From NCBI GenBank assembly GCA_045593845.1, contig JAZNXK010000011.1, positions 97,198-161,197 on the forward strand: DNA of 64,000 nt, written 5' to 3'. This document shows positions 47,315 to 47,572 of the stretch, piece after piece. Below the pieces are notes generated by a model. It was not told where the DNA came from, searched no databases, and saw nothing but the letters and a program-made list of their open reading frames with translations. Both the position numbers and the translations under genes were made by a program. The stretch's first letter is position 1. The number at the start of each line of letters is the position of its first letter. This stretch comes from Alphaproteobacteria bacterium. Its GTDB lineage: Bacteria; Pseudomonadota; Alphaproteobacteria; RF32; CAG-239.

Positions 47315-47333
47315 TGGCGTGCCCGGAGGGATT
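47315..47333. repeat. 19-bp direct repeat TGGCGTGCCCGGAGGGATT, identical to the 3' end of tRNA-Arg (47496-47514); att-like scar
   Basis: Exact match found by eye. The two copies are 162 bp apart. Confidence 0.6.
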
Positions 47334-47495
47334 ACTTCGTTATACTACGTTCACTGCGCTCATCAGCAGTGCTGACCGGCATATTCTCATCTGCCTTTCG
47401 CTTGTAGTCAAACCCACTTTTGTGGTTTCGAACCCTTAGGACTTCGTCATTTAAAAACAAAAACTCTCTCTTAAGGAGAAAATTTTTGTTTTTAT

Positions 47496-47572
47496 TGGCG
47501 TGCCCGGAGGGATTCGAACCCACGGCCTTTGGCGTCGGAGGCCAACACTCTATCCAGCTGAGCTACGGGCAC
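47496..47572 (-). tRNA. tRNA-Arg (anticodon CCG)
   Basis: Hand-folded: acceptor GTGCCCG/CGGGCAC, anticodon stem TTGGC/GCCAA with loop CTCCGAC, T arm GTGGG-TTCGAAT-CCCTC, encoded CCA. Confidence 0.9.

What the first reader, a model, noticed from the sequence alone, without database searches (positions are those of the whole stretch)
47315..47514. Exact 19-bp duplication of the tRNA-Arg 3' end, 162 bp downstream of the gene
TGGCGTGCCCGGAGGGATT occurs at 47315-47333 and again as the CCA end + acceptor + T-arm of tRNA-Arg (47496-47514). This is the classic attL/attR core of a tRNA-targeting integrase. Here, however, it brackets only 162 bp, which contain a T-arm-like hairpin AAACCCAC-tttt-GTGGTTTCGAACCC. 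This suggests a decayed element or a degenerate second tRNA. The four-gene operon starts just outside this scar.
Basis: seen in the sequence. Interest (0 to 1): 0.6.

Follow-up and report, generated by a model that had tools for sequence, protein, structure and literature searches.

The report
RtT-like repeat unit after tRNA-Arg
The 19-bp repeat is not a prophage scar: it is the built-in end of a conserved, folded ~135-nt element that sits behind tRNA genes in gut alphaproteobacteria and has the same layout as the long-unexplained RtT repeat behind E. coli tRNA-Tyr.

Summary
TGGCGTGCCCGGAGGGATT occurs exactly twice, at 47315-47333 and as nt 58-76 of tRNA-Arg(CCG) at 47496-47514; about 0.01 copies are expected by chance. 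The integrase-scar reading is not supported. No integrase was found among the ORFs tested in the 64-kb window, and the insert matches no phage or plasmid.

The bracketed DNA is one copy of a conserved structured element, called X_B here. About 40 copies were found in related gut and rumen alphaproteobacterial contigs. Each lies just downstream of a tRNA gene (Arg-CCG, Arg-CCU, Ser, Met, Lys or Pro) in the same orientation, and in most copies scored the last 19 nt repeat the neighbouring tRNA's 3' end.

Five helices are supported: 83% of cells are paired against 28-38% for slid controls, and 16 pairs show compensatory changes.

The layout is: reverse-complemented T-arm, T-arm 5' half, core, then nt 58-76. 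The E. coli tyrT/tyrV RtT repeat (Rfam RF00391) has the same layout and the same 19-nt extent. A covariance model built only from the alphaproteobacterial copies finds all four E. coli RtT units (21-31 bits; background at most 14 bits). RF00391 itself does not detect the window copy, and core sequence similarity is weak.

Verdict: a distant, RtT-like variant of a known kind. Its function is unknown, and it shows signs of repeated gain and loss.

The parts
47496..47572 (-). tRNA-Arg(CCG). Its last 19 nt (47514..47496) form the first copy of the repeat.
   Evidence: ARAGORN; Rfam tRNA, 65.6 bits.
47452..47494 (-). AT-rich hairpin directly after the tRNA, with 19-nt arms at 47494-47476 and 47470-47452. 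The short inner stem UUUUCUC/GAGAGAG followed by UUUUUGUUUUU reads as an intrinsic, probably bidirectional, terminator.
   Evidence: Inverted repeat I5, 89% complementary. The MFE fold has 19 pairs. The terminator scan did not call it because it has too few G-C pairs.
47315..47448 (-). One complete X_B (RtT-like) unit.
   Evidence: nhmmer E=8e-17. Covariance model R1 matches at 108.5 bits over model positions 1-141. Note that the window sequence is itself in the seed alignment.
47431..47448 (-). Degenerate inverted copy of the tRNA 3' end (the anti-tail). It includes the P0 5' strand AGGGTT (47436-47431), which pairs with AATCCC at the start of the tail.
   Evidence: Read from the sequence. 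P0 is 82.7% paired across 26 copies, and 3 of its pairs show compensatory change. Rfam's RtT consensus has the same closing helix.
47409..47430 (-). Helix P1. A reverse-complemented T-arm strand (CGAAACCAC) pairs with a sense copy of the T-arm 5' half (GTGGGTTTG).
   Evidence: 90% paired in alignment A1. In the tRNA-Pro copy, both strands change to match tRNA-Pro's T-arm.
47334..47408 (-). The core, which is not tRNA-derived. It holds ACTACAA, P2 (47401-47398 with 47361-47358), hairpin P3 (47395-47378), hairpin P4 (47376-47362), and GCAGTGAACGTAGTATAACGAAGT.
   Evidence: Alignment A1, RNAalifold, pair counts and coordinates.
47315..47333 (-). The tail: a second exact copy of tRNA nt 58-76, AATCCCTCCGGGCACGCCA. 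It carries the lineage-specific C70, where most relatives have T.

Best explanation
The 19-bp repeat is the 3' end of one RtT-like unit, not a recombination scar. The unit is a partial copy of the tRNA's own 3' part. It runs from the T-stem 5' strand through CCA, with a conserved ~75-95-nt core sitting in the T-loop at about nt 57/58. An inverted, degenerate copy of the T-arm and acceptor precedes it. On the tRNA-sense strand, the inverted copy pairs with the direct copies (helices P0 and P1) and closes a multi-helix fold (P2-P4 plus a variable hairpin). The acceptor-3'-strand-CCA tail is left at the 3' end.

Shown here: the anatomy, its recurrence behind many tRNAs with locally matching tails, the covarying helices, the strand of the fold, and the same layout in E. 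coli RtT.

Inferred for RNA: transcription from the tRNA-Arg promoter that reads through the weak AT-rich terminator yields a trailer RNA. The tRNA 3'-end maturation enzymes trim its 3' end at the CCA of the tail. The product is a stable ~135-180-nt RNA, as reported for E. coli rtT RNA. That RNA may act as a mimic or decoy of the tRNA's 3' half. The physiological role is unknown.

Inferred for DNA: units are gained, lost and multiplied by recombination within the duplicated tail (and terminator) repeats. This explains single, tandem and empty states among relatives.
For: 1. Recurrence. About 40 X_B copies were found at E<1e-10, each 43-79 nt after a tRNA (243-276 nt when a copy is the second unit of a tandem), and all in the tRNA's orientation. 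Among the copies with an upstream tRNA on the contig, 20 of 30 tails match the local tRNA at 16-19 of 19 positions, for Arg-CCG, Arg-CCU, Ser-GGA, Met-CAU and Lys-UUU. Copies also follow tRNA-Pro and Ser-UGA.
2. Structure. 83.4% of cells are paired against 28-38% when partners are slid. 16 pairs show compensatory change. The covariation score is 0.275 against 0.04-0.08, and 0 of 500 shuffles reach it.
3. Strand. G-U pairs are frequent on the tRNA-sense strand: 78:96 is G-U in 21 of 26 copies, 21:43 in 11, and 20:44 is U-G in 12. These would be A-C mismatches on the other strand.
4. E. coli. The last 19 nt of tRNA-Tyr occur six times, at 175/178-bp spacing. The RF00391 units have the same order of parts and the same closing helix. 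Model R1, built only from alphaproteobacterial copies, hits all four RtT units full length at 21-31 bits. The best unrelated hit in about 860 kb is 13.8 bits, and no plain tRNA is hit.
5. Copy number. It varies in both clades: 1-14 RtT places per E. coli genome, and 0-5 units at tRNA-Arg(CCG) in 66 related loci.
6. Neighbours. Genes around the units are housekeeping, and no integrase was seen.
Against: - RF00391 itself does not detect the window unit, or the 8 other loci tested that carry X_B, at E<=10.
- Sequence-only similarity of the cores is weak. The core HMM gives no hit, the full HMM scores 7 bits, and pairwise alignments have z of 1.5-4.1. Common descent from RtT is therefore not proven, and the shared layout could be convergent.
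- A strong hairpin separates the unit from the tRNA, and no conserved promoter was found inside the unit. Transcription is assumed, not shown.
- The tail's acceptor part decays in several copies: L063, L101, L113 and L159 match at 11-15 of 19. This argues that the full 19 nt are not all under selection.
- I derived the structure by eye from the same sequences on which it was counted. Most metagenome copies were also ascertained with a motif in P1.
Confidence: 0.62

Rival explanations
1. The unit is a miniature integrative element. Its att region is the tRNA tail (plus terminator). A T-loop-specific tyrosine integrase encoded elsewhere moves it in trans, like a cis-mobilisable element (CIME) reduced to about 180 bp. 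On this view the 19-mers are true attL/attR cores.
For: - Identity starts inside the T-loop and runs to CCA, as at T-loop att sites.
- In relatives the repeat often extends through the terminator, about 45-62 bp.
- The orthologous site is empty in L072, holds X_B in L070, L073 and L074, and holds a different core in L076. That implies repeated gains.
- Tandem identical units occur in L050.
- The same 19-mer lies next to a real integrase in L001.
Against: - No integrase was found in the window or next to any of about 30 unit-bearing contigs.
- The same core sits behind at least six different tRNAs, each copy carrying its own local tail and a locally matching T-arm piece. A fixed attP cannot supply that.
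- The helices covary, and G-U pairs point to an RNA fold.
- There is no phage or plasmid homology.
Confidence: 0.15
2. The core is a non-autonomous transposon, for example a hairpin-ended derivative of a single-strand (HUH-type) transposon. It inserts into exposed tRNA-gene loops such as the T-loop TTCGA. Only insertions into a duplicated tRNA fragment survive, which leaves the partial tRNA copies. The conserved hairpins are then DNA ends that the transposase recognises.
For: - The only part of the unit that is not tRNA-derived is the core. It is flanked precisely by the T-arm 5' half plus TTCGA (or TTCA) on one side and by nt 58-76 on the other.
- A second core family (A/D) occurs in both orientations. 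It also occurs upstream of the tRNA, between tRNA nt 1-22 and nt 27-42.
- The distribution is patchy, with three core families found at one site.
Against: - No transposase was seen.
- Copies were found only next to tRNAs in about 1.3 Mb of held sequence. That sequence was collected around tRNA-linked genes or by the element's own motif.
- This mechanism predicts neither the target duplication of 19-60 bp nor the inverted T-arm copy.
- The G-U-rich helices favour RNA.
Confidence: 0.15
3. It is a chance repeat, or the remains of a decayed tandem tRNA-Arg gene, with no function.
For: Tandem tRNA genes are common. Parts of the insert resemble a T-arm.
Against: - Chance expectation is 0.01.
- Similarity to the tRNA stops sharply at nt 58, and the rest aligns with a conserved family rather than with a tRNA.
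- ARAGORN finds no pseudo-tRNA.
Confidence: 0.03

Closest known systems
RtT RNA, the 178-bp repeat of the E. coli tyrT/tyrV locus (Rfam RF00391; gene rttR). The references are from my own knowledge: Egan & Landy 1978, Rossi et al. 1981, Boesl & Kersten 1991. The last is cited in PMC3318445.
   Same: - It lies directly behind a tRNA gene in the same orientation.
- Unit spacing is 175-178 bp in E. coli and 181 bp here.
- Each unit ends with exactly the last 19 nt (58-76, including CCA) of the neighbouring tRNA.
- The order of parts is the same: reverse-complemented T-arm, T-arm 5' half plus TTCGA, a CT..AGCGARAG motif, two hairpins, AGCGAAGCG..GAGT, then the tail.
- The closing helix forms between the 5' segment and the T-stem part of the tail.
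- Copy number is variable.
- Model R1 hits all four E. coli units.
   Different: - RF00391 does not score the window unit, and core sequence similarity is marginal.
- Here the unit follows tRNA-Arg(CCG). In relatives it follows Arg-CCU, Ser, Met, Lys and Pro, not Tyr.
- The host is a gut alphaproteobacterium, not an enterobacterium.
- A terminator hairpin separates the tRNA from the unit, and in relatives it is often duplicated after the unit.
- The window holds a single unit, and there is no tpr-like ORF.
attL/attR direct repeats of tRNA-integrating phages and islands (T-loop class of tyrosine-integrase sites).
   Same: A direct repeat that starts in the T-loop and runs to the tRNA 3' end. 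The L001 viral contig carries the same 19-mer as a tRNA fragment, 150 bp from a Phage_integrase gene.
   Different: The repeats bracket 162 bp of conserved structured sequence with no genes. No integrase was found. The same core occurs behind many tRNAs, each copy with its own local tail.
REPINs, MITEs and other small palindromic intergenic repeat elements.
   Same: Small (~100-200 nt), non-coding, hairpin-rich and multi-copy, with a patchy distribution and tandem clusters.
   Different: Copies were found only at tRNA gene ends. Their ends are copied from the neighbouring tRNA rather than being fixed terminal repeats. No short target-site duplication is present.
tRNA-trailer-derived small RNAs, for example the 3' external transcribed spacer of E. 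coli leuZ (from my own knowledge).
   Same: This is what I infer the unit works like: an RNA made from the tRNA transcript downstream of the mature tRNA and released by tRNA processing.
   Different: Those trailers are short, unstructured sponges and do not copy the tRNA 3' end. Expression of the window unit has not been tested.

Membership tests
RtT RNA (Rfam RF00391) | Scores at or above the family's gathering threshold (45 bits) with the Rfam covariance model. | tested here: not met
   No RtT match even at E<=10 for window 47250-47720 or for 8 loci that carry X_B. The E. coli units score 133-137 bits.
RtT RNA (Rfam RF00391) | Lies immediately downstream of a tRNA gene, on the same strand. 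| tested here: met
   The unit at 47448..47315 follows tRNA-Arg at 47572..47496 on the minus strand. The same holds for every X_B copy that has an upstream tRNA on its contig.
RtT RNA (Rfam RF00391) | The unit ends with the last 19 nt (including CCA) of the adjacent tRNA. | tested here: met
   19 of 19 in the window. 19 of 19, six times, in E. coli. 16-19 of 19 in 20 of the 30 X_B copies scored.
RtT RNA (Rfam RF00391) | A closing helix forms between a 5' segment and the T-stem part of the tail, with internal hairpins. | tested here: met
   The Rfam consensus structure shows this helix. The equivalent P0, plus P1-P4, is supported by covariation in X_B.
RtT RNA (Rfam RF00391) | Detectable similarity to RtT by an independent model. 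| tested here: inconclusive
   Covariance model R1 hits RtT at 21-31 bits, with background at most 13.8 bits. Sequence-only HMMs and pairwise core alignments are weak.
RtT RNA (Rfam RF00391) | A stable RNA processed out of the tRNA primary transcript. | not testable with these tools
   No expression data are available. The abundance of G-U pairs on the tRNA-sense strand is consistent with it.
Integrase att scar, or integrated element at a tRNA | A tyrosine or serine recombinase gene lies within or beside the repeat-bounded segment, or there are remnants of one. | tested here: not met
   The 162 bp hold no gene. The flanking genes are DUF4177, unknowns and L28. Ten candidate ORFs across the window are housekeeping or unassigned. 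tblastn with the L001 integrase gave E>=4.
Integrase att scar, or integrated element at a tRNA | The bounded DNA is related to phage, plasmid or ICE sequence. | tested here: not met
   No blastn match in 50,697 phage records or 72,556 plasmid records.
Integrase att scar, or integrated element at a tRNA | A direct repeat of the tRNA 3' part, and empty sites in relatives. | tested here: met
   This feature is shared with RtT-like units, so it does not discriminate between the two.
Pseudo-tRNA or decayed tandem tRNA | Cloverleaf-like similarity to a tRNA over most of its length. | tested here: not met
   ARAGORN and Rfam find only the intact tRNA. Only T-arm and acceptor fragments are tRNA-like.

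The most novel reading that the evidence does not exclude
RtT is not an E. coli oddity. It would be one member of a widespread class of tRNA-parasitic mini-elements. In this class, several unrelated structured cores (X_B/RtT-like, A/D and C here) repeatedly colonise tRNA genes. They sit in the T-loop, or in the D-arm/anticodon-arm region, of partial tRNA copies that are regenerated from the local tRNA. An as-yet unknown and possibly RNA-mediated copying mechanism would do this. The elements would give rise to RNAs that mimic and/or pair with the neighbouring tRNA's 3' half.
Probability: 0.3. Interest if true: 0.8.

Novelty: new variant of a known kind. Interest (0 to 1): 0.58.

Why it matters
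To my knowledge, the RtT repeat behind E. coli tRNA-Tyr has been known since 1978. A 2024 preprint still describes its mode of action as unknown (10.1101/2024.07.17.603846).

The window's unit belongs to a second, distant set of RtT-like units in another bacterial class, behind at least six tRNA species. That set supplies what the enterobacterial family could not:
- enough divergence to define a fold by covariation;
- a clear separation of the tRNA-derived parts from the core;
- natural empty, single and tandem states of the site.

This makes the origin and role of RtT-type elements testable.

There is also a practical lesson for annotators. Short exact repeats of a tRNA 3' end are not always att sites of integrated elements.

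Tried and rejected
- **Pseudo-tRNA, tmRNA or any Rfam family in the insert.** None was found.
- **Hammerhead ribozyme.** The core contains CUGAUGAG...CGAAAG-like strings. However, the CUGA bases covary as part of helix P4, they are not conserved (for example in L070, L057 and L114), and there is no Rfam hit. Rejected.
- **Retroviral-type primer-binding site.** The plus strand is complementary to the tRNA's 3' 19 nt. I considered this and dropped it, because the repeat length varies from 14 to 22 nt and more, and it often extends through the terminator in relatives.
- **Exact-match look-up and homologue search for the neighbouring 151-aa protein.** It is not on record, and it has only 3 metagenomic homologues. 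This gave no comparative value.
- **Conserved promoter inside the unit.** There is one weak match (TTGACT-17-GAGAAT, 47411-47383), which is no more than chance predicts.
- **Literature searches for tRNA-flanking structured repeats.** Nothing specific turned up. PMC329039 (Boesl & Kersten 1991) is not held.
- **Core-only sequence homology to RtT.** Not significant.

Full report
**1. Observation**

The 19-mer TGGCGTGCCCGGAGGGATT occurs at 47315-47333 and 47496-47514 and nowhere else in the window, even with three mismatches allowed. About 0.01 copies are expected by chance (repeat family D7). ARAGORN and Rfam place tRNA-Arg(CCG) on the minus strand at 47496-47572. In tRNA terms the repeat is nt 58-76: AAU of the T-loop, the T-stem 3' strand, the acceptor 3' strand, G73 and CCA (read).

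Directly after the tRNA there is an AT-rich hairpin with 19-nt arms (47452-47494). The second copy of the 19-mer lies 38 nt upstream of the start codon of a DUF4177 gene.

**2. Context**

The window is ordinary chromosome. The neighbours are L28, L17, enolase, D-Tyr-tRNA deacylase and an RsmB-like gene. Ten further candidate ORFs include phosphoglycerate kinase, GAPDH, QueA and the DNA polymerase III delta subunit. None is an integrase. tblastn with a real integrase found nothing. The insert has no blastn match among phage or plasmid records.

A search with L28 returned 80 loci from uncultured gut and rumen Alphaproteobacteria MAGs. In most of them the tRNA-Arg(CCG)-rpmB arrangement is conserved.

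**3. The repeat is recurrent**

None of the relatives has the window's exact 19-mer, because their tRNA sequences differ. However, about 15 of them repeat the 3' end of their own tRNA-Arg (14-22 nt) roughly 180-240 bp downstream. Some do so in two or three tandem units, and L050 has two identical 201-bp units. The repeat often extends through the tRNA's terminator hairpin.

L072 has a clean empty site. Its close relatives L073 and L074 carry a unit in front of the same downstream gene.

**4. A conserved family behind many tRNAs**

The window's insert is homologous to units in L057, L063, L070, L073 and L074. A metagenome scan with a conserved 18-mer, followed by an HMM search, gave about 40 copies of this family, which I call X_B.

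Every copy with an upstream tRNA on its contig lies 43-79 nt after that tRNA (243-276 nt for the second unit of a tandem) and in the tRNA's orientation. The tRNAs are Arg-CCG, Arg-CCU, Ser-GGA, Met-CAU and Lys-UUU, plus Pro-GGG and Ser-UGA.

The last 19 nt of a unit usually match the local tRNA. Of the 30 copies scored against an upstream tRNA, 20 match at 16-19 of 19 positions and 9 match at all 19. The weakest matches are 8-15 of 19, in L091/L146, L119, L063, L074, L070, L073, L113, L159, L133 and L101. In the window the tail even carries the lineage-specific C70.

The genes flanking these units are housekeeping genes (dnaB, rpsB-tsf, typA, tyrS, murA, htpG, eno). GC content is 33-44%, so the units lie in chromosomes of what looks like the same general clade. 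No integrase was seen.

**5. Anatomy**

Comparing copies behind different tRNAs shows that only the middle of a unit is foreign to the tRNA. The order of parts is:
- tRNA
- terminator
- an inverted, degenerate copy of the T-arm, sometimes with part of the acceptor
- a 4-7-nt spacer
- a sense copy of the T-stem 5' strand plus TTCGA
- the core (CTACMAGCGARAG, hairpin, GGU, hairpin, AUGAGCGC..., a variable hairpin, ...GAGU)
- nt 58-76 of the tRNA
- often a second copy of the terminator

In the tRNA-Pro copy, both strands of the T-arm-derived helix have changed to match tRNA-Pro.

**6. Structure**

I tested five helices on a 26-sequence alignment (A1):
- P0: GGGAUU with AAUCCC at the start of the tail
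- P1: the two T-arm-derived strands
- P2: G-C, C-G, then tandem G-A or Watson-Crick pairs
- P3 and P4: hairpins

Overall, 83.4% of cells are paired, against 28-38% when partners are slid by 1-3 columns. Sixteen pairs show compensatory change. The covariation score is 0.275 against 0.04-0.08, and 0 of 500 shuffles reach it.

G-U pairs are common on the tRNA-sense strand. For example, pair 78:96 is G-U in 21 of 26 copies. The fold therefore belongs to that strand, most simply as RNA.

Two caveats apply. I derived the structure from these same sequences. Most metagenome copies were also found through a motif in P1, so the invariance of P1 is partly due to how the copies were collected.

**7. Link to E. 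coli RtT**

The layout recalled the tyrT locus. In K-12 (NC_000913.3 1286300-1287900) the last 19 nt of tRNA-Tyr occur six times: twice in the two tRNA genes and four times in RtT units, at 175/178-bp spacing. Rfam RF00391 marks those four units at 133-137 bits.

Each RtT unit has the same order of parts as X_B, and its pieces are derived from the tRNA-Tyr T-arm:
- inverted T-arm: GGGGAAGGATGAGAAGCTTCG
- T-arm 5' half plus TTCGA: CAAGGTTCGA
- CTCGAGCGCCAGCGAGAG
- two hairpins
- CGAAGCGCGCAGCGCTGAGT
- AATCCTTCC... through CCA

Rfam's consensus structure contains the same closing helix.

A covariance model built only from the alphaproteobacterial copies (R1) finds all four RtT units full length at 31.1, 23.2, 22.5 and 21.2 bits. 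The best unrelated hit in the window is 13.8 bits, the best in 795 kb of related loci is 11.1 bits, and no plain tRNA is hit.

The reverse test fails. RF00391 does not detect the window unit, or the 8 other X_B-bearing loci tested, at E<=10. Sequence-only comparisons of the cores are marginal.

I therefore call the window's element RtT-like. The layout is the same and the 19-nt extent is the same, but common ancestry of the core is not proven.

**8. Dynamics**

Of 66 related loci with tRNA-Arg(CCG) and at least 300 nt downstream:
- 19 carry one to five units on the 3' side
- 8 carry units on the 5' side
- 44 are empty

Three unrelated core families occur at this one site: B, A/D and C. At the orthologous site in front of the same downstream gene, L072 is empty, L070, L073 and L074 have X_B, and L076 has an A-type core. 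Gains have therefore happened more than once.

In E. coli the number of RtT places per genome ranges from 1 to 14.

**9. Interpretation**

The best-supported reading is that the 19-bp repeat is an intrinsic part of an RtT-like unit, not a footprint of integrase recombination. I infer that:
- the unit is expressed on the tRNA strand, by read-through;
- the tRNA 3'-processing enzymes mature its 3' end at the tail's CCA, as reported for rtT RNA in E. coli (Boesl & Kersten 1991, my own knowledge; cited in PMC3318445);
- units multiply and disappear by recombination between the tail and terminator repeats.

The RNA's role is unknown. A 2024 preprint states the same for rttR (10.1101/2024.07.17.603846).

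Two rivals remain open for how units first arrive at a tRNA: a trans-mobilised mini integrative element, and a non-autonomous transposon that targets tRNA loops. Neither explains the locally copied inverted T-arm, and no enzyme was found for either.

A real att site with the same 19-mer is seen in viral contig L001. It consists of a tRNA fragment 150 bp from a Phage_integrase gene.

**10. Verdict**

The integrase-scar interpretation is only partly supported. The feature is a new, distant variant of a known but functionally unexplained kind (RtT). It is of moderate interest in itself, and of higher interest if the broader class of tRNA-colonising elements holds up.

Noticed in passing
window 43644-43940 (+), downstream of tRNA-Gly(GCC) at 43569-43643: A second unit of the same general layout but with a different core. 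The order is: terminator; an exact 14-nt inverted copy of the tRNA-Gly tail (CGGGTGAAGGGATT, 43683-43696); a ~170-nt core containing CGCTTCGGTCACTCG; a tail-like GCCTGCTCCA ending at 43870; then a second copy of the terminator and the inverted-tail hairpin. There is a weak hit to the A/D core HMM (43858-43745, minus strand, E=4.6e-4).
   Followed up: partly
L035 3162-3527, and also L029, L038, L044, L048, L053, L054 (between tRNA-Arg and rpmB): Units of the A/D core family lie upstream of tRNA-Arg(CCG). Each runs: leader, tRNA nt 1-22/24, core, tRNA nt 27-42 (the anticodon stem-loop), leader, then the intact tRNA. L035 has two tandem 183-bp units. The core's 5' end, CGGAGG, is complementary to the copied anticodon loop CCUCCG.
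   Followed up: partly
L006, L042, L043, L050, L057, L076, L081 compared with L029, L038, L040, L048, L053: The A/D core occurs in both orientations relative to the tRNA, whereas every X_B copy checked against an adjacent tRNA is co-oriented with it. L081 carries five units at one tRNA, mixing the A/D and C cores.
   Followed up: no
window 44055-47276: The five genes between the convergent tRNA-Gly and tRNA-Arg look lineage-specific. They are a 512-aa protein with ELPEPxRT-type repeats, and proteins of 114, 181, 151 and 70 aa (the last is DUF4177). The 151-aa protein has no relative in 185,579 species genomes and only 3 metagenomic homologues. Most of the others have no Pfam match. Related species have other genes at this position.
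   Followed up: partly
window 47496-47572, tRNA-Arg(CCG): The T-stem has a U50-U64 mismatch (GUGGG/CCCUC). Part of the clade keeps the mismatch, while other members have C50-G64. The window has G3-C70 where most relatives have A3-U70.
   Followed up: no
window 42271-42861 (L17) and 47707-48078 (L28): Both ribosomal proteins carry long Lys/Ala-rich C-terminal extensions.
   Followed up: no
L164 88-230: An X_B copy is broken inside helix P3 by unrelated sequence containing the inverted repeat TGTCATGTT...AACATGACA. This may be a secondary insertion.
   Followed up: no
L001 5320-6558 (IMG/VR contig): The window's exact 19-mer occurs as a 3' tRNA fragment with no intact tRNA nearby. It lies 150 bp from a 355-aa Phage_integrase gene, which makes it a genuine att-type site.
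   Followed up: yes
L098, L106, L108, L152 (tRNA-Ser plus the start of a unit): There are sub-threshold Rfam hits to SpF41 (RF02435, 32-36 bits) and sX4 (RF02223, up to 29 bits). They overlap the tRNA 3' part, the terminator and the first part of the unit. These families may themselves include tRNA-trailer sequence.
   Followed up: no
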